From sequence record OR062946.1: a stretch of 64,000 nucleotides of DNA; one strand, given 5' to 3'. The first letter of the stretch is position 1. The number at the start of each line of letters is the position of its first letter. Positions 913-27,190 of the stretch are shown here, piece by piece. The notes under the pieces are model-generated. The model saw nothing but the letters and a program-made list of their open reading frames with translations. It was not told the DNA's origin and did not search any database. The translations under genes and the position numbers were made by a program. The DNA is from Escherichia phage 310Ecol104PP.

Positions 913-1941
913 TTAAATCTTAGCATATTTAGATAGCCGCATTTTAGCCATCAACCCCTGGGCAATATTATTTTTCATATATTCCATAATTTGTTCAGGG
1001 GTTGCACCTTCCTTTCTAATCATATCATTAACATCTTTTGATTTCCAGGGAGATTTATCCCAAAACATAACCCTTTCTCCTGCATCAACTAATTTAGTCA
1101 TTCGCTTAATAGTGTCAGGATGACGAGGTTCATTATCTAAAACCCACACTCGTCTATCTTTAAATGGAACAACTTCTAGGTCTAATTGACCACCCGTAAT
1201 AGCTATACCATTTTCAATAAAAAGTGAATCTATAGGTCCTTCTAGAACATATACATCACCATCTTTAACTCGTTCGACTCCATAGATTTTTGTTGCTTCA
1301 GGATAAGCTTTGATAGTGATATATTTTTGGGGAGCATCTTTCTTTAATGCACGTCCTTGAAAAGACTCAGCTTTTCCATTAGCATTATAAATTGGAATAA
1401 CAAGACGAGGCTCAGGTATTTCCTTTTTATATGTTCCCGGTGCTATGCTATTAACTAATTTAGGCCATTCAGTTGTAAACCAAAGATATTTCCATTTATC
1501 CTTTGGAATACAACGAGCTTTTACATATTTTATAATTGGATGGTCTTCCGCCAGTTTATCTAATCTAACACATGACGGAAGAGATTTAATTATTTTCTTC
1601 TCAGGTTGTTTAGGAAGTTCTTTAGGTTTTTCTACTGGACGACTTTTACCTTTTTCTTTTCTTATTTCAAAGATATACTCACGATATAAATCAGGTTCAA
1701 ACTCCTTTAAATATATTCCGATTGGTGCATGATAGTTACAGTTATAACAATGAATATTTCCTTCATTATTATCACCATAATACCATCCACGAGCTTTATT
1801 CTGGTCGGTTTTTGAATCTCCACAAACAGGGCATCTAAACCGCAATTTAAAAGTTGAACTATTATTTACTTGTGTGAATTTAGGTAAATGAGCCAATGCA
1901 CGATATGCAAACTCATTATCAATCCAAGGTATTGATGACAT
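913..1941 (-). CDS. 61: DNA primase gp61
   Basis: 342 aa; MSSIPWIDNEFAYRALAHL, zinc-ribbon CPVCGDSKTDQNKARGWYY...CYNCNYH; matches recalled T4 gp61. Confidence 0.95.
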   Translation of the reverse strand: MSSIPWIDNEFAYRALAHLPKFTQVNNSSTFKLRFRCPVCGDSKTDQNKARGWYYGDNNEGNIHCYNCNYHAPIGIYLKEFEPDLYREYIFEIRKEKGKSRPVEKPKELPKQPEKKIIKSLPSCVRLDKLAEDHPIIKYVKARCIPKDKWKYLWFTTEWPKLVNSIAPGTYKKEIPEPRLVIPIYNANGKAESFQGRALKKDAPQKYITIKAYPEATKIYGVERVKDGDVYVLEGPIDSLFIENGIAITGGQLDLEVVPFKDRRVWVLDNEPRHPDTIKRMTKLVDAGERVMFWDKSPWKSKDVNDMIRKEGATPEQIMEYMKNNIAQGLMAKMRLSKYAKI

Positions 1942-15648: not shown

Positions 15649-15840
15649 TTAGTCATAATAATCAGTAACAGTCCAAGCTTCATTTCTATTGGACATTATT
15701 TTTGTATATTCTGCTTTAAATGCATTCCTAAGCATAGATTCAGTAACTATATGCTCTTCATTAGAAAAATTATTTCTCAGAATATATCGTTTTATTTCAG
15801 GAATAGTTAATAGATGCTGTCCAGTTGAATATTCTGCCAC
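15649..15840 (-). CDS. small protein (T4 45.2 position)
   Basis: 63 aa ORF, GTG start in track. Confidence 0.5.
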   Translation of the reverse strand: MAEYSTGQHLLTIPEIKRYILRNNFSNEEHIVTESMLRNAFKAEYTKIMSNRNEAWTVTDYYD

Positions 15841-15850
15841 AGTTCCTCCG

Positions 15851-15858
15851 TATAAATA
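15851..15858 (+). promoter_or_regulatory. T4 late promoter upstream of HNH gene
   Basis: TATAAATA on plus strand about 34 nt upstream of HNH ATG. Confidence 0.5.
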
Positions 15859-15891
15859 TGTTTATCACTCGCTGTATCAAAAGGATATGTT

Positions 15892-16608
15892 ATGAATTAT
15901 AAACTAATTTATGAAAAGCTAATCTCTAATGCTAAATCTCGAAAACTTAATTGCTATACTGAATCTCATCACATTATACCACGCTGTTTAAATGGTAGCG
16001 ATGATGCTTCAAACTTAGTAGATTTAACACCAGAAGAGCACTATGTAGCTCATCAACTTTTAGTAAAAATTTATCCTTCTGAACCAAAATTAGTCTATGC
16101 TGCTAACATGATGACAGTTTCCACAAAATACGCTAAACGCAACAATAAAACTTTCGGTTGGATTCGTCGTAAACTCTGGGAAATAGAAAAGAATAAAGAA
16201 TTCTCCCAGGAGACACGAAAGAAAATGTCTGATGCAGTAGCTAATAAAGCAAGACTAACTTGTCCTCATTGCGGTAAGTCTGGATTAAGCGGGAATATGA
16301 ATCGTTGGCATTTTGATAACTGCCCAAATCACCCTAATCCTAAAGTTAGACCACCAATGTCTAAAGAACACAGAAATAATATCTCAAACGGGCTTAAAGC
16401 AATCGTTCTTGAAGAAACATCCTGCGAATTCTGCGGAATGATAGGCAAGAAATGCGTTATCGCAGCGCATAGAAATTTCTGCAAGAAAAATCCAAATGGA
16501 CGCAAGAAAACTGAAAAGACTGGTACTTGCGTCCATTGTGGTAAAGTTACCACTTTCGGAAATTTATCAAGGTGGCATAATGATAACTGTAAATATAAAC
16601 CTAGCTAA
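15892..16608 (+). CDS. freestanding HNH homing endonuclease with three C-terminal zinc-finger-like repeats
   Basis: 238 aa; HNH motif ESHHIIPRCLNGSDDASNLVDLTPEEHYVAHQ; repeats CPHCG..WHFDNC, CEFCG..HRNFC, CVHCG..WHNDNC; opposite strand to neighbours; 8-nt convergent overlap with gene 46. Confidence 0.8.
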   Translation: MNYKLIYEKLISNAKSRKLNCYTESHHIIPRCLNGSDDASNLVDLTPEEHYVAHQLLVKIYPSEPKLVYAANMMTVSTKYAKRNNKTFGWIRRKLWEIEKNKEFSQETRKKMSDAVANKARLTCPHCGKSGLSGNMNRWHFDNCPNHPNPKVRPPMSKEHRNNISNGLKAIVLEETSCEFCGMIGKKCVIAAHRNFCKKNPNGRKKTEKTGTCVHCGKVTTFGNLSRWHNDNCKYKPS

Positions 16609-18289
16609 TCTTAGCTAAACTAAATCTACCAACTTTTTCCATTTGAATATGCTGACCATATTCTTGTGGGTCATGGTCTTTATGTGAAATTATGAAGAAG
16701 TTGGTATCCTTCAAACCATCTAAAATTTTAGCTACATTTTTAATACCTTCAGCATCAAATGCACCGTCATACACTTCATCAAGAAATAAACAACTTATTT
16801 TAACACCTGAAACTTTTTCAGCAATATCACGCCAAGTAAATAAAAGAGCAATATCAATTCGTGCTTTTTCACCTTGACTAAATGAAGCATAACTAAAATC
16901 TTCACGACCACGGGATTTAATTGTTTCATTAAATTCTTCATCTAATGTAAACACATAATCCGCTTCCATTATTTTAAGATAATGGTTAATCTGCTTATTA
17001 AATAATGGAATGTACTTTTTAATAATAGCACCTTTAATACCAGAATCTTTGAGCATGTCAGTCAAAATTCCTCTGTGGTATTTTTCCATTACTAAATTAG
17101 TTTTTGTCTTAACAATTTTATCAAGTTCTTCTTGAAGCAGTGCTATTTCATCAGCATGGTCAATAAACTCAGATGATGCTTTTTCTATAGCCGCTTTAAC
17201 TTTTTTAGCTTTATCTACCGTCGTGATTAGAGATTGCTTTTTATTGCGAATATCATTTGCCAACGACTGTTGGGTTTTAATATTATCTCGGTATTCATCA
17301 ACAAGAACTTTTAAATTATCACGATGTGTTGAAAGCTGTTCAAACGAATGCGTACATTCAGAAACTTTATCTTTAATTTTAGAAACAACTTTATCACCGG
17401 AACTCAATTGTGACAAACAGGTTGGACATAATCCACCTTCGTGATACATATTAATGACTTTATTATACGAGTCAATTTTTGATTTAATTAAAACTGCTTC
17501 TTGACCGATTTTATTAAATGCATCAGTCGGGTCTTCATCTAAAACAATATTAACTAATCTTTCATTAGCTTCTTCTATTTCCGATTTTAGCGTTCTAGCT
17601 TCTTTTGCCAAATCATCATACATATTTTGCAGACGAGTAAGGTTGTCACCAGTTAATTTTTTCTGGCGTTCAACGTTATCATTATATATTTTAATTTGTT
17701 GGATAATACTATCTTTTTTAACATCAAGCACTTGGTTTTGTGAATTTAATTCACGTATTAGTGCTTTATTAAGCTTATCCATTTCAGCTAATGTTCCTAC
17801 CTCAAGCAGGTCTTCCACAAGCTTTCTTCGCGCAGGGGTCGACAAACCCATGAAAGGGGTATACCCTGCTGTACCAAGGACAACAATCTGCTTGAAACTG
17901 GCATATGACATTCCGATAAGCTGTTCAAATTCTGCTTGGAAATCTTTACTGCTGGCAGATTCATTAAGACGTGTACCGTTAACGGTGATTTCGAAAACGT
18001 TTGGTTTTTGTCCTCTTTTGATATAGTACTTTTTCTCATCATATTCCATCCACAGTTCAACTAAAAGTTCTTTCTTATTTGTGCTGTTTATTAATTGACC
18101 TTTCTTTACATCACGAAATGGCTTGCCAAAAAGCCCAAATGTGATGGCTTCTAACATAGTAGACTTACCACCGCCATTTCGTCCAGTAATAAGAGTTTTT
18201 TGAACCTTATCTAATTGAATGTCAATAGGATTTCCACCTACTGACATTATATTTTGATACCTAACTCGGTTTAGTTTAAAATTCTTCAC
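16601..18289 (-). CDS. 46: recombination endonuclease subunit gp46 (Rad50/SbcC-like)
   Basis: 562 aa; Walker A GRNGGGKST; coiled-coil middle. Confidence 0.95.
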   Translation of the reverse strand: MKNFKLNRVRYQNIMSVGGNPIDIQLDKVQKTLITGRNGGGKSTMLEAITFGLFGKPFRDVKKGQLINSTNKKELLVELWMEYDEKKYYIKRGQKPNVFEITVNGTRLNESASSKDFQAEFEQLIGMSYASFKQIVVLGTAGYTPFMGLSTPARRKLVEDLLEVGTLAEMDKLNKALIRELNSQNQVLDVKKDSIIQQIKIYNDNVERQKKLTGDNLTRLQNMYDDLAKEARTLKSEIEEANERLVNIVLDEDPTDAFNKIGQEAVLIKSKIDSYNKVINMYHEGGLCPTCLSQLSSGDKVVSKIKDKVSECTHSFEQLSTHRDNLKVLVDEYRDNIKTQQSLANDIRNKKQSLITTVDKAKKVKAAIEKASSEFIDHADEIALLQEELDKIVKTKTNLVMEKYHRGILTDMLKDSGIKGAIIKKYIPLFNKQINHYLKIMEADYVFTLDEEFNETIKSRGREDFSYASFSQGEKARIDIALLFTWRDIAEKVSGVKISCLFLDEVYDGAFDAEGIKNVAKILDGLKDTNFFIISHKDHDPQEYGQHIQMEKVGRFSLAKIS

Positions 18290-19899: not shown

Positions 19900-19929
19900 T
19901 CCGTATAAAGCTAAAGGGCCGAAGCCCTT
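19900..19929 (-). terminator. intrinsic terminator after alpha-gt
   Basis: AAGGGC-CGAA-GCCCTT hairpin. Confidence 0.5.
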
Positions 19930-21131
19930 TATTTTGTAATAATGTCAAACTGTTCTTTAAAGCAGAAGCTTGAATCTTGATGCTGATACAAAAATTCATA
20001 CGCTTTTTCTCGCTCACGGTCATAAAGAGCTCGGTCAGATGACAGTTCTTTAATACGTTCGAGTGTCGATTCCATGTCATTTTCATCAAACCAAATGATA
20101 CCGCTATCATGCGAGGTCAAAGGAGTATTATCAACACGGAATTTCAAATTATCACCCGTTGATTTCCAGAAAACAGGAATTGTACCACAAGCACCTAATT
20201 CAAGATGAGTATATTCGAGTGAGCGTTGTAAGTATTTCTGGTTAAGTTTACTCAACTGATATCCAAAGCCAGATTTACTCATTCGTTCAAGCATTTCACT
20301 ATTAATATAACAATCTAGGATTTGTGCCGGTTGATTCGGCGCGAGATTCATTTTATCAATCTCACGATTACCGTAATATTCATACGGAATACCTTTTTCC
20401 TTAATTGCAATAAAAGCAGGGGAACGTTCAAGACCTTCCATTACAGTGGATTTACCAGCAGGTTTTAAGAATTTTTCATGAAAATCAAACATCTGATAAA
20501 AACCTTTCCATGTAGTCGTACGACCAATCCAACGGTTGATATTCATGTTAATTTCAGAAACATCTTTCCAATAAGTTGACCGAACCTTCGCAATATCCAT
20601 AGGAGGCTGAAAGTTGTATACGGTCGGTGCTTCTTCAATATCATCAAACAGAGAAACAGTTTCTGGATACCACTCTTTCATCAGAACTTTATTAAAATCG
20701 CCATTATCAGAATGGCTAAAAATAACATCAGCTCGACGAACAGTTTCTTCTAATCCCGAATTTCGACGCAAAGAAAGAACAGAATGATCATGCTGATAAA
20801 CTACAACACGAATAGAAGGTTTAATATTATCTAAAAGTTTTTTATAGTTATTAATCGTAGCTTCTTGAACGGAAGTAGCAGGAACAGAATTAATAATTAG
20901 AATATCACAATCATTAATCAGTTTAAGTGCTTTATCGTATTCTTTAGCTAAAATAACTGGAATTGAAAATGATTTGTGGTCATGAGAACTTGTACGAGTA
21001 AATGATTTATCTTTAGCATAAACCAGAGTTACTTCATGACCATTTTTAATGAACCAATCACGTTGCTCAAGAGAAAATTTAGTTACGCCGCAACCTTCAA
21101 GACCTCGAGCCATAAAAATGCATACTTTCAT
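19929..21131 (-). CDS. a-gt: DNA alpha-glucosyltransferase
   Basis: 400 aa MKVCIFMARGLEGCGVTKFSLEQRDWFIKNGHEV; matches recalled T4 alpha-gt. Confidence 0.95.
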   Translation of the reverse strand: MKVCIFMARGLEGCGVTKFSLEQRDWFIKNGHEVTLVYAKDKSFTRTSSHDHKSFSIPVILAKEYDKALKLINDCDILIINSVPATSVQEATINNYKKLLDNIKPSIRVVVYQHDHSVLSLRRNSGLEETVRRADVIFSHSDNGDFNKVLMKEWYPETVSLFDDIEEAPTVYNFQPPMDIAKVRSTYWKDVSEINMNINRWIGRTTTWKGFYQMFDFHEKFLKPAGKSTVMEGLERSPAFIAIKEKGIPYEYYGNREIDKMNLAPNQPAQILDCYINSEMLERMSKSGFGYQLSKLNQKYLQRSLEYTHLELGACGTIPVFWKSTGDNLKFRVDNTPLTSHDSGIIWFDENDMESTLERIKELSSDRALYDREREKAYEFLYQHQDSSFCFKEQFDIITK

Positions 21132-21375
21132 TTAATATCCTCATTGTTTTGGTTTATTTTACAAAAAAATTTATAAAGCAATATAGGAGCAAAAGCTCCT
21201 ATCCGCATAATACACCATACAGAGGCTCATTAGAGCTTCTAAATTTTATACGTTTATATGTTATAGTTCCTTCCGCTTTAGCTTTATCATGAGACTCTTT
21301 AAAACGTCTCATCATTTCTACTTTAGAGGAACGAATTTTATTATAATCTATTTCAGAAGTCTGGGTGTTCATCTT

Positions 21376-21582
21376 TCACAGTTGCCACCATTTTTTGACT
21401 TGATAAGAATCAACCCACACTTTCATATTAGGGTCTGCTCTTACAATAGGAGGATTAACTTCTTTAATTGAACTATCATGGTATTCCTTTTCAGAAATTT
21501 TCACGCAAAGATGACCATTCAAAGATTCGGTAAATCCTGCATTAATTTTAAGACGCTTGAATTTTACGTGTGTAAGCATCAA
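21376..21582 (-). CDS. hypothetical small protein
   Basis: 68 aa ORF, overlaps next ORF; start uncertain. Confidence 0.35.
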   Translation of the reverse strand: MMLTHVKFKRLKINAGFTESLNGHLCVKISEKEYHDSSIKEVNPPIVRADPNMKVWVDSYQVKKWWQL

Positions 21583-21865
21583 TCATATCCTCAATCTGCG
21601 ATCTAGTAGTCTTCCAAAGAATACTAATGAGTTCATCGTTATATGGCTGTTTTAGAATATCCCGACTTTTCTTGATAGCATATTCGTATTGAGCAAAATT
21701 ATTGTTTTCAGCTGCAATCTGAGCGTGTTTATAAAGACGGTTCAGTTCGCGCTTATTTTTAGACAATAACTTATTTGCTTTTCTTTCTGCTTCAAGACGG
21801 TTCTTTTCTTCAATAGAAGAAATAAGCTTTTCCACTTCATCATTAATTTCGGGTTTATCAGTCAT
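21548..21865 (-). CDS. hypothetical protein, 105 aa
   Basis: ORF track; coiled-coil-like. Confidence 0.5.
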   Translation of the reverse strand: MTDKPEINDEVEKLISSIEEKNRLEAERKANKLLSKNKRELNRLYKHAQIAAENNNFAQYEYAIKKSRDILKQPYNDELISILWKTTRSQIEDMIDAYTRKIQAS

Positions 21866-21866
21866 A

Positions 21867-22085
21867 TTATTTCTCTAATATAAAATAAAAATCATCATCT
21901 GTTAAATGATACCGATAGTTTAATTCTACGCCATTAGATTTAAAAGCGGTATCATACGGATTTTCTGGATCAATATCAATGTCAAGAGCTAAAACTTCCC
22001 TGAGATACATTTTAAGTAAATAGGGAATAGCTTCAACTTCAGGTATTTCTTCCAAGAATCCGGAGAGGTTAATCGTTAGCCTCAT
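21867..22085 (-). CDS. hypothetical protein, 72 aa
   Basis: ORF track. Confidence 0.5.
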
Positions 22086-22626
22086 ATAAAAAATCCAAAC
22101 TAGGAGAATCGTCTACAACACTTTTCTTTTCAGCCCCTGGTGTTCTATAGGTTGATTCTTCGTAATGCGTCATTTTATCGTAGATGTCTTGAATAAAAGT
22201 TTCATCTACTAACGCAACCATATCGTCGTCACAACTGTCATAGACATTGTGAACGAAGTAACTGTATTTCTTTGCAACTTCCTTACGTTCTTTTTTAATA
22301 CGTTGGACAAATGCATTAAAACAAGCTTGAGTTATATATGCATGTGGGTTTTTATATTTCGTTTCATCAAAATTATGAAGCCCCTTAATAGAAGCTTCTA
22401 TACCATCTGCAATCATTTCTTGTTTCCATGATTGGGTGTATCCTGAAAAGTTGAAACGTTTAGATAAGCCTTCTGCAATAAGCATAATGGCTAATCCGAT
22501 AGTATCATTCTGACGAACTACTTTATTTGGGTCTTTATTATTTGCTAATTCTGTTTTCCAATCAATAATAGCTTGTAAAAGCTCTTTATTGTTTACGTAA
22601 TTATATTTAGGCTTAGTTTCTGACAT
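22069..22626 (-). CDS. 55: late sigma factor gp55
   Basis: start ATG 22626 ([23 protein letters not shown]), 185 aa; matches recalled T4 gp55. Confidence 0.9.
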
Positions 22627-22708
22627 TTTCACCTCTTAGCTCAATTCATAGATCTATTATATCATAATATTTGAAGATCTATCTTAAAGCATAGAGGATG
22701 AATCAATT

Positions 22709-22924
22709 TCACGCATTCATTAAGTTAGCCGCTTCAAGAGCTGCATCTAGTGAATCAAATTGATCGACATATTCAATCAATTCGCCATAATTAGCGTATA
22801 ACCACCATTGGCTAAATTCATACTCAAGGATGAATCCATTTCCTTCAATTTGAGTTAAACCAATGCCGTTTGTATTTACTTCATATCCGGCAAGACGCAA
22901 ATCATTAATAAGAGCTTCGTTCAT
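22709..22924 (-). CDS. hypothetical protein, 71 aa
   Basis: ORF track. Confidence 0.5.
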   Translation of the reverse strand: MNEALINDLRLAGYEVNTNGIGLTQIEGNGFILEYEFSQWWLYANYGELIEYVDQFDSLDAALEAANLMNA

Positions 22925-22926
22925 AA

Positions 22927-23253
22927 TTATGCCTTAGTAATTTTCAGGTCAGCAAATTTTTTCTTGCGTTGATTTTTCATACGACGAATAGTTTTATCGG
23001 AAATTTCATGTTTTTGATAAGCTTTAGATTCTACACCAAAAGCTTTAACATCAAATTCTGACAAGATATATTGAACCAACAATTCACGGACAGTATTGCG
23101 CCCAATTTTCTGATCATTCTGTTTCATCGTCTGATGAAGCTCTTTTTCCCATTTATCCAAAATTTGAGGAGTTACAATATCGCCTTTTTCTAGCAAAGAA
23201 ACTACTTTATCATATGCGTAAGAATTGATGGCGTTTTTAATTTGAATAGTCAT
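22927..23253 (-). CDS. hypothetical protein, 108 aa
   Basis: ORF track; basic C-terminus. Confidence 0.5.
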   Translation of the reverse strand: MTIQIKNAINSYAYDKVVSLLEKGDIVTPQILDKWEKELHQTMKQNDQKIGRNTVRELLVQYILSEFDVKAFGVESKAYQKHEISDKTIRRMKNQRKKKFADLKITKA

Positions 23254-23283
23254 ACATTATCCTCAATTGCGTTAAAGTTTTAT

Positions 23284-23306
23284 TATCCAAAAGGGCCGAA
23301 GCCCTT
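23284..23306 (-). terminator. intrinsic terminator
   Basis: AAGGGC-CGAA-GCCCTT hairpin plus U-run. Confidence 0.55.
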
Positions 23307-23505
23307 AGCTAAACTGTTTGGCGCCCTTCCAGCCTTCGTACATCATTGCAGCTGATATTAATATTGCTCCTGAGCAACTTGAATATTTGTGATTCCAAAA
23401 CCAGTTCAGAAAAACTTCGTCATCAATACCTTGGGCTATCATATTTTCAAAGAACTGACGACGAGCTTCGGCAATTCGTTGTGATAATTTAGATTCAGGA
23501 TTCAT
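23305..23505 (-). CDS. hypothetical protein, 66 aa
   Basis: ORF track. Confidence 0.45.
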   Translation of the reverse strand: MNPESKLSQRIAEARRQFFENMIAQGIDDEVFLNWFWNHKYSSCSGAILISAAMMYEGWKGAKQFS

Positions 23506-23721
23506 TTAAATTTTCCAGTTACCGTTTTCATCAATAAATTTAATCCAGTCATTTACTGACCACTTAGTTGTATCACCTTTTGGAGTAACATTTAAAGTGT
23601 ATAACCCCTGCTTAAAAAGCATTCGTTTGATATTCATAATTTCCTCAGCTGTAACGATAACACTCGTTTGATTTACGTTTAGCAACTCGTTGAGAAGTAT
23701 TATAATCAAAATCATCGTCAA
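23506..23721 (-). CDS. hypothetical small protein
   Basis: 71 aa ORF overlapping upstream gene; true start probably internal. Confidence 0.35.
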   Translation of the reverse strand: MTMILIIILLNELLNVNQTSVIVTAEEIMNIKRMLFKQGLYTLNVTPKGDTTKWSVNDWIKFIDENGNWKI

Positions 23722-23938
23722 TGTAAACTGATTTTTTCAACTTTCTTACTTCACCACGTAATTGGCGATTTAGCTCATCTTTAACTTCTGAATCAATACC
23801 TTTCATTCTACGCCATTTATCTGAGCGAAAAATGTTTTCAACCATATCTTTATGACTTACACCATCAGGAGCTTTACGCTTTCCGAAATAGTCATAATCA
23901 CGTACTTTTAAATCTTTACGACGATACGTTTTACCCAT
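23645..23938 (-). CDS. hypothetical basic protein, 97 aa
   Basis: ORF track. Confidence 0.5.
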   Translation of the reverse strand: MGKTYRRKDLKVRDYDYFGKRKAPDGVSHKDMVENIFRSDKWRRMKGIDSEVKDELNRQLRGEVRKLKKSVYIDDDFDYNTSQRVAKRKSNECYRYS

Positions 23939-23943
23939 GGAGT

Positions 23944-24108
23944 TTAATTTTCCTTAGCAACTGAACTAAATACAGCACGATCACAAATCATATGTTTGTT
24001 CCATTTAAGCACAGTATAATGAACATCTAGATCATCTACTGCTGTAACAATAACAATATGTCCGTTAACTCGATAATACTGATCCCTTTTAATCTCTTTA
24101 TCAACCAT
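23944..24108 (-). CDS. hypothetical small protein, 54 aa
   Basis: own translation MVDKEIKRDQYYRVNGHIVIVTAVDDLDVHYTVLKWNKHMICDRAVFSSVAKEN; early promoter upstream. Confidence 0.45.
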   Translation of the reverse strand: MVDKEIKRDQYYRVNGHIVIVTAVDDLDVHYTVLKWNKHMICDRAVFSSVAKEN

Positions 24109-24138
24109 ATCAAATCCTCAAAGGCAATTCATATGTTA

Positions 24139-24168
24139 ATAATACCACAATTTGAACTTCTTGTAAAC
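24139..24168 (-). promoter_or_regulatory. T4-type early promoter
   Basis: GTTTAC, 18 nt, TATTAT. Confidence 0.55.
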
Positions 24169-24240
24169 AACTTTGTGAAAATTATTTTAGGGAATGATAA
24201 GAAGGGAACGATAACTTAGAATGGTAATATACAGAATGTG

Positions 24241-24262
24241 AGAAAGAAAGGCCCAGAGGGCC
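24241..24262 (-). terminator. intrinsic terminator after nrdH
   Basis: GGCCC-AGA-GGGCC hairpin plus U-run. Confidence 0.5.
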
Positions 24263-24266
24263 CGTC

Positions 24267-24575
24267 TTAGTCTTCTATGATATCTCTATCATATCCAAGT
24301 GAAATGAGAGTTTCTTTGAAGTGTTTAATGTTCTTTTGTCTAGAATCATTGATGAAAATGACTGGATAACGAATGTTAAGAGATGTGAATCCAGCTCGTT
24401 TAGCAAGAGATACAATCAGTGGACGATCATACTCAATCTTACCATTATTTGTAAGAACTTTATAGAAAGTAAAAGGAGCATTGAGCTCCTTTAGAAGTTT
24501 TGTAACTGATTGACATCCAGGACAACGACCTACTTCATCTGGAATTCCATAGACTTCAATCTTATTTTGTTTCAC
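24267..24575 (-). CDS. nrdH: NrdH glutaredoxin-like protein
   Basis: 102 aa; CPGC redox motif. Confidence 0.8.
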   Translation of the reverse strand: MKQNKIEVYGIPDEVGRCPGCQSVTKLLKELNAPFTFYKVLTNNGKIEYDRPLIVSLAKRAGFTSLNIRYPVIFINDSRQKNIKHFKETLISLGYDRDIIED

Positions 24576-24577
24576 AA

Positions 24578-24790
24578 CTATTCCTTACTAAGAGCAGCGT
24601 TCAGCTTGTTAGTAATTTTATCCAAACGCTCATTGAACTCACTAGAAGATAAGCCCTTTTCTGGAGAAATCAAACTAATCACGAAAAATATAGCAATAAA
24701 AGGAATAAGGAAAATAGCTCCAACTGCCATAAACAGAAAGAATGTTACAGTTGTAAGAAAATCAGCTAAACCTTTACGAAATTTATACAT
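24578..24790 (-). CDS. small membrane protein, 70 aa
   Basis: ORF track; hydrophobic core. Confidence 0.45.
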   Translation of the reverse strand: MYKFRKGLADFLTTVTFFLFMAVGAIFLIPFIAIFFVISLISPEKGLSSSEFNERLDKITNKLNAALSKE

Positions 24791-24905
24791 ATTTTACCCT
24801 TAATTGATTAACCAAGCATTGATAAGCACTAAACTATACTGCGAATAAAATTCTGGACCAAAATGAAAAATCATATCATTTATAGTATCCATAATGTAAT
24901 TCAAT

Positions 24906-25376
24906 TTAATCATGTTTCCACACCCCATCGGTATTTGACCAAAGCCGCTGATTATCTGATCCTCGCCACAGCTTTTTAGTCGGAAGATTTTTCTCATACT
25001 TCCCATCAATAATAACATCAACATATTTAAGCATTTCTAGTTGTTTAATATCTTCAAACTTATATCCTGTCCACAACCAAATGCTTTTATTGGGATAAAG
25101 ATTTTTTACTGTTTGAACAATGCAATGAATAACATCTCGGTTATCAGGATAGAGAGGGTCTCCTCCAGTTATAGTTAATCCTTCTATATAATCATTATTC
25201 AAACATTCAATTAATTGTTCTAGTGTTTCACCAGTGAATGGAATACCATTTCTAGCATTCCATGTTGATTTATTATAACACCCTTCACACTTATGCAAAC
25301 AACCTGTAACGAAAAGAACGACCCTGCAACCAGGGCCATTCACAAAATCGCAAGGATAAAATCTATCATAATTCAT
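24906..25376 (-). CDS. nrdG: anaerobic ribonucleotide reductase activating protein NrdG
   Basis: 156 aa; radical-SAM Cys cluster CLHKCEGCYN. Confidence 0.9.
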   Translation of the reverse strand: MNYDRFYPCDFVNGPGCRVVLFVTGCLHKCEGCYNKSTWNARNGIPFTGETLEQLIECLNNDYIEGLTITGGDPLYPDNRDVIHCIVQTVKNLYPNKSIWLWTGYKFEDIKQLEMLKYVDVIIDGKYEKNLPTKKLWRGSDNQRLWSNTDGVWKHD

Positions 25377-27190
25377 TGGTGTTTAACCCTATGCATGATT
25401 TCTTTATTTTTACCGAGATTAAATCCGCGTTCGTTCGGATTTCCCAAATAACCGCATGTTCTTCTTATGGTATTCATCTTTTTAGGATCAGTTTCTCCAC
25501 AAATAGAACAAACAAATCCGTTTTCAGTAGGAGTCATTTCATGGGTACTTCCACATGTAAAACATTTATCTACTGGCATATTAACACCAAAATAATCTAA
25601 ATGTTGTGCAGCATAATCCCATACAGCCTCAAGACCCTTTAAGTTATTTTTCATATCAGGAAGTTCAACATAAGAAATGTGACCACCTGTCGCAATGAAA
25701 TGATATGGTGCTTCACGAGAAATCTTTTCAAACGGAGTGATATTTTCTTCTACTGAAACATGGAAACTATTAGTGTACCAGCCTTTATCAGTAACATCCT
25801 TTACACTTCCATATTTCTCAGTATCAAGTTTACAGAAGCGATAGCACAGGTTTTCAGCAGGAGTAGAATACAAGCTAAAAGCAAAACCGGTTCTTTCAGT
25901 CCACTGCTTAAGACGAGTATTCATTTTAGTTAAAATTTCCTGTCCAATATCACGACCGACAAGAATATTCAATTCGTGAATACCAATGTATCCTAGGGAC
26001 ACTGAACTTCTACCGTTTTTAAATAACTCAATTATGTCGTCATCAGGTTTAAGACGAACCCCGAATGCACCTTCTTGGTAAAGAATAGGAGCAACAGTCG
26101 CTTTAACTCCTTTTAAGGAACTAATTCTACACATCAAAGCTTCAAAACATAAATCCATTCGTTCATTGAATAATTCAACAAATTTCTGTTCATTGAACTG
26201 TGTTCCAATATAAGAATCTAACGCGATGCGAGGAAGATTCAGTGTTACAACACCAAGATTATTACGTCCATCAAGAATTTCATTGCCAGTCGAATCTTTC
26301 CATACGCTCAAGAAACTACGGCAACCCATTGGAGAAACAGGAACAGATGAACCAGTGATAGCTTTATTGTTCTTAGCTGAAATAATATCAGGATACATCC
26401 TTTTGCTTGCACACTCTAGAGCAAGCTGTTTAATATCATAGTTCGGATCGTCTTTATAAAGATTAACACCTTCTTCAACGAACATAACAAGCTTAGGGAA
26501 AATAGGAGTTATCCCATCACGACCAAGACCTTTAATACGATTTTTCAGAATTGCTTTCTGAATCATTCGTTCAGTCCAGTCAGTTCCCGTACCAAATGTA
26601 ATTGTTACAAAAGGAGTCTGTCCGTTTGAACTAAAGAGAGTATTTACTTCATATTCATAAGCTTGGAATGCATCGTATACGTCTTTTTCTGTTTTAGATT
26701 GAGCATAATTTAACGCATCAGCGATTTGCCATTTTTCTGCATCCTCAATATGTTTTGCATAGGTGCGTTTAACATAAGGAGAAAGTACTTTATCTACATT
26801 CGCAAAAGTCGTTCCGCCGTATTGGTGAGAAGCAACCTGTGCAGTAATTTGTGCCATAATTGCAGTAGCAACGCCAATTGATTTAGGAGTTTCAATCTGT
26901 GCATTACCAAGCTTAAATCCGTTTTCAAGCATTCCTTTTAAATCTACTAAACAGCAATTAGTAAATGGAAGAGCAGGGGAATAATCAATATCATGGAAAT
27001 GAATAATTCCGCTTTCATGCGCTTTCATAATAAAAGACGGGACCATATTTTTGGCAATGTGTTTAGACACAATACCAGCCATAAGGTCCCGTTGAGTTGG
27101 AAAAACACGAGAATCTTTATTAGCATTCTCGTTTAAAAGGTCTTTATTAGTTTTATGAATCAATCCTTCAATTTCTTTTTCAATTGTCAT
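25373..27190 (-). CDS. nrdD: anaerobic ribonucleoside-triphosphate reductase NrdD (uninterrupted)
   Basis: 605 aa single ORF; C-terminal glycyl-radical and Zn site CFTCGSTHEM...CSICGETD. Confidence 0.95.
   Translation of the reverse strand: MTIEKEIEGLIHKTNKDLLNENANKDSRVFPTQRDLMAGIVSKHIAKNMVPSFIMKAHESGIIHFHDIDYSPALPFTNCCLVDLKGMLENGFKLGNAQIETPKSIGVATAIMAQITAQVASHQYGGTTFANVDKVLSPYVKRTYAKHIEDAEKWQIADALNYAQSKTEKDVYDAFQAYEYEVNTLFSSNGQTPFVTITFGTGTDWTERMIQKAILKNRIKGLGRDGITPIFPKLVMFVEEGVNLYKDDPNYDIKQLALECASKRMYPDIISAKNNKAITGSSVPVSPMGCRSFLSVWKDSTGNEILDGRNNLGVVTLNLPRIALDSYIGTQFNEQKFVELFNERMDLCFEALMCRISSLKGVKATVAPILYQEGAFGVRLKPDDDIIELFKNGRSSVSLGYIGIHELNILVGRDIGQEILTKMNTRLKQWTERTGFAFSLYSTPAENLCYRFCKLDTEKYGSVKDVTDKGWYTNSFHVSVEENITPFEKISREAPYHFIATGGHISYVELPDMKNNLKGLEAVWDYAAQHLDYFGVNMPVDKCFTCGSTHEMTPTENGFVCSICGETDPKKMNTIRRTCGYLGNPNERGFNLGKNKEIMHRVKHQ

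What the first reader, a model, noticed from the sequence alone, without database searches (positions are those of the whole stretch)
15892..16608. Freestanding HNH homing endonuclease inserted opposite to flanking genes between 45.2 and 46
This is the only substantial plus-strand ORF inside the minus-strand early region. It encodes 238 aa with a canonical HNH motif followed by three tandem zinc-finger-like repeats (C-x2-C-G-x8-10-W-H-x-D-N-C). A plus-strand TATAAATA late promoter lies 34 nt upstream, and the 3' end overlaps the stop of gene 46 convergently by 8 nt. As far as I recall T4 has no gene at this junction, so this looks like a lineage-specific homing endonuclease insertion. The repeat architecture is unusual for T4 Mob proteins.
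Basis: partly seen in the sequence, partly recalled or inferred. Interest (0 to 1): 0.6.

Follow-up and report, generated by a model that had tools for sequence, protein, structure and literature searches.

The report
Mob-type HNH homing endonuclease gene
This is an intact selfish "homing endonuclease" gene sitting between genes 45.2 and 46 of a T4-like phage. It is an ordinary kind of element that public phage records already annotate as such. It does travel with its own version of the end of the neighbouring DNA-repair gene, which points to where it probably cuts.

Summary
ORF 15892-16608 (+, 238 aa) lies between 45.2 and gene 46, which are both on the minus strand. It overlaps the gene 46 stop by 8 nt and has TATAAATA 34 nt upstream.

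The protein is a chimera. Residues 1-115 are the T4 Mob-type HNH nuclease domain (37-53% identical to MobB/C/D/E). Residues 118-238 carry three I-TevIII-type CCHC zinc fingers.

T4, T2 and T6 have only a 55-bp spacer at this junction. The gene is present in 59 of roughly 560 Tequatrovirus records, including RB32 ORF054w, annotated "similar to mobB". Orthologues (42-64% aa) occupy the same junction, in the same orientation, in some Dhakavirus, Mosigvirus, Gaprivervirus and Klebsiella phages. Catalytic residues and all 12 zinc ligands are invariant, and dN/dS is about 0.14-0.20.

New here: the gene is completely linked to a deeply divergent allele of the last ~190 nt of gene 46. That block ends at the Walker B codons. 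All HEG-less alleles examined, except one HEG-less Mosigvirus that carries the HEG-type block, encode TLILDEVFD; every HEG-carrying lineage differs. This makes that segment the predicted target and immunity site (inference, untested).

The parts
15836..16620 (.). Segment present here and absent from T4. It replaces 72 bp of T4: the 45.2 start codon, the 55-bp spacer and the last 4 codons of gene 46.
   Evidence: Alignment to T4 NC_000866. The left flank is identical to T4 up to 15835. Homology resumes at about 16621.
15851..15858 (+). T4-type late promoter TATAAATA for the endonuclease gene.
   Evidence: The TAAATA core is invariant at the same position in six orthologous upstream regions. Function is inferred.
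15881..15885 (+). Shine-Dalgarno-like AAGGA, 6 nt before the ATG.
   Evidence: Read from the sequence. An AAGGA/AGG block is aligned in the orthologues.
15892..16608 (+). Homing endonuclease ORF, 238 aa including the TAA stop.
   Evidence: (PHROG 655 'homing endonuclease', E 1.7e-68).
15955..16053 (+). HNH catalytic core (aa 22-54: H26, H27, N41, H50, H54).
   Evidence: Pfam HNH is weak (E 0.008, below the cut-off). A family profile matches the McrA HNH domain at E 3.7e-4. The residues are invariant. The AlphaFold model shows strand-strand-helix at 24-27, 42-45 and 47-60.
16261..16323 (+). Zinc finger 1 (C124, C127, H140, C144).
   Evidence: ligands invariant; beta-beta-alpha, pLDDT above 90; 50% identical to I-TevIII finger 2.
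16423..16482 (+). Zinc finger 2 (C178, C181, H193, C197), the degenerate finger.
   Evidence: With finger 3 it aligns to the two-finger module of I-TevIII (38% over 63 aa, E 1e-7).
16528..16590 (+). Zinc finger 3 (C213, C216, H229, C233).
   Evidence: (ligands invariant in 80 homologues).
15649..15840 (-). Gene 45.2 with its start changed from ATG (T4) to GTG and one extra codon (VAEYST against MEYST). The left junction of the insert lies in codons 1-2.
   Evidence: All six HEG-carrying Tequatrovirus genomes examined share this.
16601..16800 (-). HEG-linked allele of the 3' end of gene 46: Walker B, D-loop, H-loop and a new C-terminal tail (SLAKIS* instead of TVMV*).
   Evidence: All 22 fixed differences between 6 HEG+ and 12 HEG- Tequatrovirus genomes fall in 16615-16792. 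This allele (>=95% identity) is found in exactly 59 records, the same number as carry the HEG.
16766..16792 (-). Gene 46 Walker B codons (C-L-F-L-D-E-V-Y-D). This is the far edge of the linked block and the predicted immunity site, corresponding to the predicted cleavage region in HEG-less phages.
   Evidence: This is inference; no cleavage data exist.
15896..15920 (-). Possible MotA-box-like element (AGCTTTT) plus TATAAT on the minus strand, embedded in the first codons of the endonuclease gene. It could replace the T4 spacer's TGCTTTA-N11-TATAAT upstream of 45.2. Speculative.
   Evidence: Read from the sequence. Consensus taken from PMC2988021. Not tested.

Best explanation
The ORF is an intact, probably active, freestanding homing endonuclease gene (HEG) of the T4 Mob type.

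Architecture. The protein has two modules.
- An N-terminal Mob-type HNH nuclease domain (aa 1-115).
- A C-terminal DNA-binding array of three Cys2-His-Cys zinc fingers of the I-TevIII kind (aa 118-238).

Expression. It is made late in infection from its own TATAAATA promoter. This is the only plausible way to express it, because it points against the surrounding early and middle genes.

Proposed mechanism.
1. In a mixed infection with a relative that lacks the gene, the zinc fingers bind the HEG-less allele of the 45.2/46 region.
2. The HNH domain nicks or cuts that allele.
3. The break is repaired by recombination using the HEG-carrying genome as template.
4. Repair copies in the HEG together with the adjacent ~190 nt of gene 46.

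Predicted cut and immunity site: the Walker B coding segment of gene 46, ATT CTT GAT GAR GTN TTT GAY, about 180-200 bp from the insertion point. The HEG-carrying allele is altered there and so would escape self-cleavage.

Status of each step.
- Shown here: the domain homology, conservation of the key residues, the sporadic distribution at a fixed site, and complete linkage to a divergent gene 46 3' allele.
- Inferred, about 0.85: the protein has endonuclease activity and homes.
- Inferred, about 0.7: the target lies somewhere in the last ~200 bp of gene 46.
- Inferred, about 0.4: the target is specifically the Walker B codons.
- Not decided: whether it nicks or makes a double-strand break.
For: Domains:
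- BLASTP matches aa 1-115 to T4 MobB (44%), MobE (42%), MobD (53% over 75 aa) and MobC (37%).
- aa 118-238 match the C-terminal zinc fingers of T4 I-TevIII (38-50%).
- PHROG 655 'homing endonuclease', E 1.7e-68.
- A family profile hits the HNH domains of McrA, Cas8f-HNH and IscB.
- AlphaFold model, mean pLDDT 93.7: an HNH strand-strand-helix plus three beta-beta-alpha fingers.

Conservation:
- H26, H27, N41, H50, H54 and all 12 zinc ligands are invariant in 21 orthologues down to 44% identity.
- dN/dS between genera is 0.14-0.20, similar to gp46.

Mobility signature:
- Absent from T4, T2 and T6, and from about 500 Tequatrovirus records that have the empty junction.
- Present in 59 Tequatrovirus records.
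- Present in 9 of about 55 Dhakavirus matches and in 14 Mosigvirus records.
- Also present in a Gaprivervirus and in Klebsiella phages.
- Always between 45.2 and 46, and always convergent with 46.

Linked block:
- Tequatrovirus: 22 of 22 fixed HEG+/HEG- differences lie in 16615-16792.
- Dhakavirus: 55 of 56 lie in the last 212 nt of gene 46.
- Mosigvirus: the last 180 nt are 71-73% identical between HEG+ and HEG- genomes, against 96.5-97% for the next 500 nt.
- The HEG-type allele occurs in exactly 59 records.

Walker B:
- All 18 ordinary HEG-less alleles from three genera encode TLILDEVFD.
- HEG-carrying lineages encode CLFLDEVYD, TLVLDEVFD, TLIMDEVMD, TLILDEVMD, LLIMDEVFD or LLILDEVYD.

Promoter: the TAAATA core is invariant upstream of six orthologues.

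Precedents: MobE nicks nrdB beside a conserved motif that is polymorphic in mobE+ phages (PMC2790892). The I-TevIII zinc fingers bind DNA (PMC1865063).
Against: - No biochemical or genetic test of this protein was found in the searchable literature.
- Pfam HNH scores below its curated cut-off (16.7 bits against 21.4).
- Fold searches gave no significant match. HNH domains rank first, but with E above 0.3.
- The last ~190 nt of gene 46 are hypervariable in HEG-less phages too. T4-type and T2-type differ by 22%. The block edge at Walker B could therefore simply mark where nucleotide homology resumes and crossovers can occur, not the cut site.
- The Walker B comparison rests on about 6 HEG-less and 5-6 HEG-carrying haplotype lineages, and these are not fully independent.
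- TATAAATA is no more frequent in the window than chance.
Confidence: 0.8

Rival explanations
1. Same enzyme, different target. The endonuclease recognises the empty 45.2/46 junction itself (the spacer plus the gene ends), as intron-encoded enzymes recognise the intron-less junction. Insertion then destroys the site. On this view the divergent gene 46 block is only hitch-hiking donor DNA.
For: - The insert replaces the whole T4 spacer and both gene ends.
- Six of the 22 fixed differences lie within 35 nt of the gene 46 stop, at 16615-16648.
- I-TevIII binds at its insertion site and cuts 14-16 bp away (PMC1865063).
Against: - The empty junctions of the three genera are unrelated. T4 has a 55-bp spacer. 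Mosigvirus has a different 54-bp spacer. In Dhakavirus, genes 46 and 45.2 overlap by 4 nt. Yet orthologous HEGs occupy the same junction in all three.
- The HEG-less Mosigvirus ESh15 has the ordinary empty spacer together with the HEG-type gene 46 block. This fits a resistant empty site whose immunity lies in gene 46.
Confidence: 0.25
2. The gene is a decaying or non-mobile passenger. It was inherited vertically from an old insertion and lost repeatedly, and it has no current endonuclease activity or homing.
For: - Orthologue divergence roughly tracks that of the flanking genes. HEG identity is 64/57/44% against gp46 69/82/45% in Dhakavirus, Mosigvirus and Klebsiella phages. This is what old residence with vertical descent and loss would give.
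- T4 itself carries defunct relatives (mobA, I-TevIII).
Against: - The ORF is intact in all 59 Tequatrovirus copies at >=95% aa identity.
- Every catalytic residue and zinc ligand is invariant.
- dN/dS is 0.14-0.20.
- The promoter core is conserved.
- A purely passive gene would not keep perfect linkage to a distinct allele of an essential neighbour across three genera.
Confidence: 0.08
3. The protein has been domesticated. It would now be a zinc-finger DNA- or RNA-binding regulator, or a nuclease used mainly to exclude competing phages or in DNA metabolism with gp46/47, rather than a self-propagating element.
For: - Long-term purifying selection and conservation across genera.
- It is expressed from a late promoter opposite to its neighbours, so its transcript is antisense to the 46/45.2 read-through RNA.
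- T4 HEGs are known to cause partial exclusion of T2 markers (PMC2993671).
Against: - The gene is absent from about 90% of close relatives, so it is not needed for phage growth.
- Marker exclusion by T4 HEGs is itself a consequence of homing, so this is not a separate mechanism.
- Nothing found here points to a regulatory target.
Confidence: 0.07

Closest known systems
T4 Mob proteins (MobB, MobC, MobD, MobE): freestanding HNH homing endonucleases. MobE is the characterised one (PMC2790892).
   Same: - N-terminal HNH domain beginning MNYxxIY...HHIIPRCxGGxDDxxNLVxLTxxEH, 37-53% identical.
- Freestanding between genes of DNA metabolism.
- A C-terminal domain that is specific to each protein.
- Linkage to polymorphisms in a conserved motif of the neighbouring essential gene, as with mobE and nrdB.
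   Different: - None of T4 MobA-E has zinc fingers.
- All T4 mob genes are co-oriented with their neighbours (PMC2988022). This gene is opposite and has its own late promoter.
- The insertion site is different (45.2/46).
- This window has no mobB, mobC or mobD at all.
I-TevIII: the HNH endonuclease of the nrdB group I intron of phage RB3, present in T4 as a truncated relic (PMC1865063).
   Same: - Two-module layout: HNH followed by C-terminal CX2CX12-13HX3C zinc fingers, which in I-TevIII bind zinc and DNA.
- Fingers 2 and 3, together with the KxNPN linker, align to the I-TevIII two-finger module (38% over 63 aa, E 1e-7).
   Different: - Not encoded in an intron.
- Three fingers instead of two.
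- The HNH domain is of the Mob type. The I-TevIII-like PHROG 12324 matches only aa 165-235.
- Whether it dimerises to make a double-strand break, as I-TevIII does, is unknown.
GIY-YIG freestanding endonuclease at the same 45.2/46 junction in Dhakavirus phage UGJNEcP3 (L028 949-1632).
   Same: - Same insertion junction.
- Ends with one finger of the same type, CPYCDKIGSNNIMKRWHFDNC (38% over 45 aa including the preceding helix, E 3e-9).
- Also associated with its own divergent gene 46 3' block.
   Different: - A different nuclease family: GIY-YIG/SegE-like plus NUMOD3.
- Co-oriented with its neighbours.
- One finger only.
- Its gene 46 allele keeps TLILDEVFD.
I-HmuI: the intron-encoded HNH nicking endonuclease of Bacillus phage SPO1.
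   Same: An extended architecture with an HNH domain followed by small DNA-binding modules. It lacks the CxxC zinc site within the HNH core. This comparison is from general knowledge.
   Different: No sequence or fold match to I-HmuI was recovered in any search. I-HmuI uses helical modules and a helix-turn-helix, not zinc fingers.

Membership tests
HNH (beta-beta-alpha-metal) nuclease superfamily | Conserved His (general base), Asn and metal-ligand His, in the order H...N...H. | tested here: met
   H26/H27, N41 and H50/H54 are invariant in 80 homologues. A family profile aligns them to the McrA HNH domain at E 3.7e-4. Pfam HNH is only sub-threshold.
HNH (beta-beta-alpha-metal) nuclease superfamily | Beta-hairpin plus helix fold around the active site. 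| tested here: inconclusive
   The AlphaFold models (pLDDT 94-95) show strands 24-27 and 42-45 followed by helix 47-60. The top Foldseek hits are HNH domains of Cas8-HNH, IscB and McrA, but with E 0.3-1.
T4 Mob family of freestanding HNH homing endonucleases | Shared N-terminal Mob HNH domain with a protein-specific C-terminal domain. | tested here: met
   BLASTP to MobB, MobC, MobD and MobE gives E 1e-22 to 1e-29 over aa 1-70/134. There is no similarity beyond that.
T4 Mob family of freestanding HNH homing endonucleases | Freestanding: intergenic, not within an intron or intein. | tested here: met
   The gene lies between 45.2 and 46, and both of those genes remain intact.
Homing endonuclease gene (functional class) | Sporadic presence or absence at one fixed genomic site among close relatives. 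| tested here: met
   59 of about 560 Tequatrovirus records, 9 of about 55 Dhakavirus matches and 14 Mosigvirus records carry it, always at the same junction.
Homing endonuclease gene (functional class) | Co-conversion, or linkage, of flanking markers with the endonuclease gene. | tested here: met
   All fixed HEG+/HEG- differences are confined to the adjacent ~190-212 nt of gene 46 in two genera. The same block pattern is seen in a third. The allele count equals the HEG count, 59.
Homing endonuclease gene (functional class) | Site-specific cleavage of the endonuclease-less allele, and super-Mendelian inheritance in crosses. | not testable with these tools
   This needs in vitro cleavage assays or phage crosses. 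No published test was found.
I-TevIII | Tandem CX2CX12-13HX3C zinc fingers in the C-terminal DNA-binding domain. | tested here: met
   Fingers 1 and 3 are CX2CX12HX3C and finger 2 is CX2CX11HX3C. They are homologous to the T4 I-TevIII fingers. The consensus is from PMC1865063.
I-TevIII | [quoted passage not shown] | tested here: not met
   The gene is freestanding. PHROG 12324 (I-TevIII-like, 269 positions) matches only aa 165-235. The protein works like I-TevIII in its DNA-binding module but is not a member of that family.
NUMOD3-containing endonucleases | NUMOD3 helix motif (Pfam PF07460) between the nuclease and the DNA-binding modules. | tested here: inconclusive
   aa 103-115 match weakly (E 0.14, 12.6 bits against a cut-off of 20.4). 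Many more distant homologues carry a bona fide NUMOD3.

The most novel reading that the evidence does not exclude
The last ~190 nt of the essential Rad50-like gene 46 (Walker B to the C-terminus) is a battleground shaped by homing endonucleases.

- In at least three genera it exists as several haplotypes that differ by 20-30%, while the adjoining DNA is 96-98% identical.
- Every lineage carrying this HNH endonuclease has independently changed amino acids within the otherwise invariant Walker B stretch TLILDEVFD, which would give immunity to self-cleavage.
- An unrelated GIY-YIG endonuclease carrying the same type of zinc finger has colonised the same junction.

Together these suggest that the I-TevIII-type finger is a portable targeting module exchanged between nuclease families.
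Probability: 0.35. Interest if true: 0.5.

Novelty: new member of a known kind. Interest (0 to 1): 0.3.

Why it matters
The finding itself is ordinary. It is one more freestanding HNH homing endonuclease in a T-even-type phage, already labelled as such in GenBank records such as RB32.

It is useful mainly as a clean natural example of module shuffling. A Mob nuclease head is joined to an I-TevIII zinc-finger tail, here with three fingers.

It also gives a concrete, cheap-to-test prediction: the enzyme cuts T4/T2 gene 46 at or near the Walker B codons, and a few codon changes there give immunity.

If confirmed, this would add a second characterised Mob-type enzyme. It would also show selfish nucleases driving amino-acid change inside a catalytic motif of an essential recombination gene.

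Tried and rejected
1. 'The T4 spacer is the footprint of a deleted HEG.' A local alignment of the T4 55-bp spacer to codons 2-13 of the HEG (window 15896-15930) scored 17, against 10.2 +/- 1.5 for shuffles; 5 of 1000 shuffles reached that score. It did not replicate.
   - The T4 spacer does not match the Dhakavirus or Mosigvirus HEGs.
   - The Mosigvirus spacer does not match its own genus's HEG.
   - Dhakavirus empty sites have no spacer at all.
   I treat it as chance, or as convergence on AT-rich promoter elements.

2. Fold searches.
   - The whole-protein Foldseek search gave only weak hits to zinc-finger arrays (CTCF, TRAF) and HNH domains.
   - The N-terminal domain alone again put HNH domains first, but not significantly.
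   - I-HmuI was never recovered.

3. Sequence search of solved structures with the single protein found nothing significant.

4. Pfam has no family for the C-terminal fingers. NCBIfam gave only a sub-threshold IscB HNH match.

5. The sigma-70 promoter and terminator scan of the region found nothing above chance.

6. IMG/VR yielded only six related loci, all HEG-less.

7. A weak tblastn hit at window 1771-1848 is the zinc finger of primase gp61, not a paralogue.

8. dS between genera is saturated (1.4-2.3, and undefined against Klebsiella phages), so the dN/dS values are approximate.
Full report
OBSERVATION. The ORF at 15892-16608 (+, ATG start, 238 aa) exists as described.
- To its left is gene 45.2 (15649-15840, minus strand). 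To its right is gene 46 (16601-18289, minus strand). Further left lie rpbA and gene 45.
- The 8-nt convergent overlap with the gene 46 stop is real.
- In the first 60 kb of the window it is the only plus-strand ORF of at least 130 aa that is not antisense inside another gene.
- TATAAATA lies at 15851-15858, followed by AAGGA at 15881-15885 and the ATG at 15892.
- TATAAATA on its own is not above chance: 10 copies in the window against 10.6 expected.

WHAT THE PROTEIN IS. It is a two-module chimera.
- Residues 1-115 are the N-terminal HNH domain shared by the T4 Mob proteins: MobB 44%, MobE 42%, MobD 53% over 75 aa, MobC 37% (E 1e-22 to 1e-29).
- Residues 118-238 have no counterpart in any T4 Mob protein. 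They match the C-terminal zinc fingers of I-TevIII, whose truncated T4 copy aligns at 38% over 63 aa and 50% over 28 aa.
- The three fingers are at aa 124-144, 178-197 and 213-233. They have the I-TevIII pattern CX2CX11-12HX3C (consensus from PMC1865063).
- Fingers 2 and 3, with their KxNPN linker, correspond to the I-TevIII two-finger module. Finger 1 is an extra copy of the finger-3 type.
- PHROGs places the protein in family 655, 'homing endonuclease' (E 1.7e-68). The I-TevIII-like family 12324 matches only the C-terminus.
- Pfam sees only a sub-threshold HNH match and has no model for the fingers.
- A profile built from 80 homologues aligns the HH...N...H core to the McrA, Cas8f-HNH and IscB HNH domains (best E 3.7e-4).
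- AlphaFold gives a confident model (mean pLDDT 93.7). It has a strand-strand-helix HNH core and three beta-beta-alpha fingers separated by helices.
- Fold searches ranked HNH domains and tandem zinc-finger arrays first, but none was significant. I-HmuI was not recovered.
- In 21 full-length orthologues down to 44% identity, H26, H27, N41, H50, H54 and all 12 zinc ligands are invariant.
- dN/dS between genera is 0.14-0.20, close to that of gp46, although dS is saturated.

INSERTION BOUNDARIES.
- T4 has only a 55-bp spacer between 45.2 and 46.
- Alignment shows the window is identical to T4 up to 15835, and homology resumes at about 16621.
- About 785 bp here replace 72 bp of T4.
- As a result 45.2 starts with GTG and gains a codon (VAEYST against MEYST), and gp46 ends in SLAKIS instead of TVMV.

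DISTRIBUTION.
- Tequatrovirus: megablast finds the whole segment in 59 phage records (98-99% identical). About 500 records, including T4, T6 and T2, have the empty junction.
- Other genera: tblastn finds full-length orthologues at the same junction and in the same orientation in Dhakavirus (IME281, 64% aa), Mosigvirus (ESCO47, 57%), Gaprivervirus (MN01, 60%) and Klebsiella phages (42-44%).
- Within Dhakavirus and Mosigvirus the gene is again sporadic: 9 of about 55 matches, and 14 records.
- Orthologue divergence is of the same order as that of gp46: 64/57/44% against 69/82/45%. The element is therefore old at this locus, or moves mostly between fairly close relatives.
- The metagenome protein collection holds more than 2000 homologues, most with NUMOD3 modules in place of the triple-finger tail.
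- The 64-kb window has no mobB, mobC or mobD and no nrdD intron, although it covers those T4 positions.

THE LINKED GENE 46 ALLELE.
- Tequatrovirus: I compared 6 HEG-carrying with 12 HEG-less genomes over about 3 kb of flanks. All 22 fixed differences lie in window 16615-16792, the last ~190 nt of gene 46. None lies in 45.2, rpbA, gene 45 or the rest of gene 46.
- Dhakavirus (3 against 3): 55 of 56 fixed differences lie in the last 212 nt of gene 46.
- Mosigvirus: HEG+ ESCO47 and HEG- JS09 or LF82-2 are 71-73% identical in this block but 96.5-97% identical in the next 500 nt.
- The block is hypervariable in general. T4-type, T2-type and HEG-type alleles differ by 20-30% while neighbouring DNA is 96-98% identical.
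- The HEG-type allele (>=95% identity) occurs in exactly 59 database records, with nothing in the 90-95% band. That matches the number of HEG-carrying records. The match was checked by counts, not record by record.
- The far edge of the block is the same in Tequatrovirus and Dhakavirus: the Walker B codons of gp46.
- I call this stretch Walker B from the motif order: signature SQGEK, then hhhhDE, then the D-loop, then the H-loop ISH. That assignment rests on general knowledge of ABC/Rad50 ATPases.
- All 18 ordinary HEG-less alleles from three genera encode TLILDEVFD, with a shared core ATT CTT GAT GAR GTN TTT GAY.
- HEG-carrying lineages encode CLFLDEVYD (Tequatrovirus), TLVLDEVFD (Dhakavirus), TLIMDEVMD (Mosigvirus), TLILDEVMD (Gaprivervirus), and LLIMDEVFD or LLILDEVYD (Klebsiella phages).
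- One HEG-less Mosigvirus, ESh15, has the normal empty spacer but the HEG-type block (98% identical). This is what a resistant empty site would look like.

EXPRESSION.
- The upstream leader is conserved across genera. The TAAATA core of the late promoter and two short blocks (TATC, TCAAA) are invariant in six orthologues.
- A late promoter fits the orientation, since plus-strand transcription in this region is otherwise absent.
- According to PMC2988022, all T4 endonuclease genes except segD are co-oriented with their neighbours. The opposite orientation here is therefore unusual, though not without precedent.
- The T4 spacer carries a good MotA-box-plus-TATAAT arrangement on the minus strand upstream of 45.2 (TGCTTTA-N11-TATAAT; consensus from PMC2988021).
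- In the window a similar arrangement (AGCTTTT-N11-TATAAT, 15896-15920) lies inside the first codons of the endonuclease gene. Whether it is used is unknown.

MECHANISM (inferred). The model follows MobE, which nicks nrdB beside a conserved motif that is polymorphic in mobE+ phages (PMC2790892), and I-TevIII, whose zinc fingers bind DNA and whose HNH domain cuts at a distance (PMC1865063).
1. The protein is made late in infection.
2. Its finger array binds the HEG-less gene 46 3' region of a co-infecting relative.
3. The HNH domain nicks or cuts there.
4. Recombinational repair copies in the HEG and the intervening gene 46 segment.

I favour a target in the coding sequence over a target in the spacer, because the empty junctions of the three genera are unrelated to one another, whereas the Walker B DNA is shared. 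The alternative reading is that the block edge merely marks where homology resumes. That cannot be excluded without cleavage data.

COMPARISON AND NOVELTY.
- The gene meets the tested criteria for the Mob family and for a homing endonuclease gene. Cleavage itself is untested.
- It borrows the DNA-binding module of I-TevIII without being a member of that intron-encoded family.
- It is already annotated as a putative homing endonuclease in many records, and RB32 is listed with 2 mob-like HEGs in PMC2993671. No experimental study of it was found.
- I rate it a new, uncharacterised member of a known kind, with low to moderate interest.
- The added value is the domain chimera, the cross-genus site fidelity, the hypervariable gene 46 3' block and the testable Walker B immunity prediction.

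Noticed in passing
L028:949-1632 (Dhakavirus phage UGJNEcP3, OV876907.1): A different freestanding endonuclease occupies the same 45.2/46 junction, co-oriented with its neighbours. It is GIY-YIG/SegE-like with a NUMOD3 motif, and it ends in one I-TevIII-type finger, CPYCDKIGSNNIMKRWHFDNC. The junction is therefore an insertion hot spot, and this finger type is shared between nuclease families.
   Followed up: partly
window 16615-16800; also L006 3221-3435, L009 and L033 gene 46 3' ends: The last ~190 nt of gene 46 (Walker B to the stop) is hypervariable within genera. Identity there is 69-80%, against 96-98% in the next 500 nt. There are at least three haplotypes in Tequatrovirus (HEG-type, T4-type, T2-type).
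   Followed up: yes
L027 (Mosigvirus phage ESh15, ON528725.1) 921-1170: This HEG-less phage has the standard empty 54-bp spacer but carries the HEG-type gene 46 3' block, 98% identical to HEG+ ESCO47 and including TLIMDEVMD. It is a candidate resistant empty site, or the product of HEG loss by recombination.
   Followed up: partly
L001 9248-9302 (T4 45.2/46 spacer) against window 15896-15930: The T4 spacer shows 26/35 identity to codons 2-13 of the HEG; 5 of 1000 shuffles scored as well. On the minus strand it holds a MotA-box-plus-TATAAT arrangement and an inverted repeat, AGAGATTAT...ATAATCTCT. The similarity did not replicate in other genera.
   Followed up: yes
window 19929-27190: Compared with T4, this phage lacks mobB (next to a-gt), mobC (nrdG at 24906-25376 abuts nrdD) and the nrdD intron with I-TevII (nrdD at 25373-27190 is one uninterrupted 605-aa ORF). 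T4 Mob proteins match nothing else in the 64-kb window.
   Followed up: partly
window 15859-15891 and alignment A3: Short blocks in the HEG 5' leader (TATC just after the promoter, and TCAAA before the ribosome-binding site) are invariant across six orthologues from different phage genera and Klebsiella phages. This hints at a conserved regulatory element in the late transcript.
   Followed up: no
L029 1599-2194 (phage Bp7, HQ829472.1): In this HEG-carrying Dhakavirus record, gene 46 is annotated as two fragments next to the HEG, and the Walker B stretch could not be found in any frame. This could be a sequencing or frameshift artefact, or a damaged gene.
   Followed up: no
L023 about 2290-2330 (Tequatrovirus NIC06P2, OZ035760.1): This HEG-carrying phage has a variant overlap region: several substitutions and a 2-nt insertion around the HEG stop and gene 46 stop. 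Both C-terminal tails are changed (the HEG ends ...NCKHKH*).
   Followed up: no
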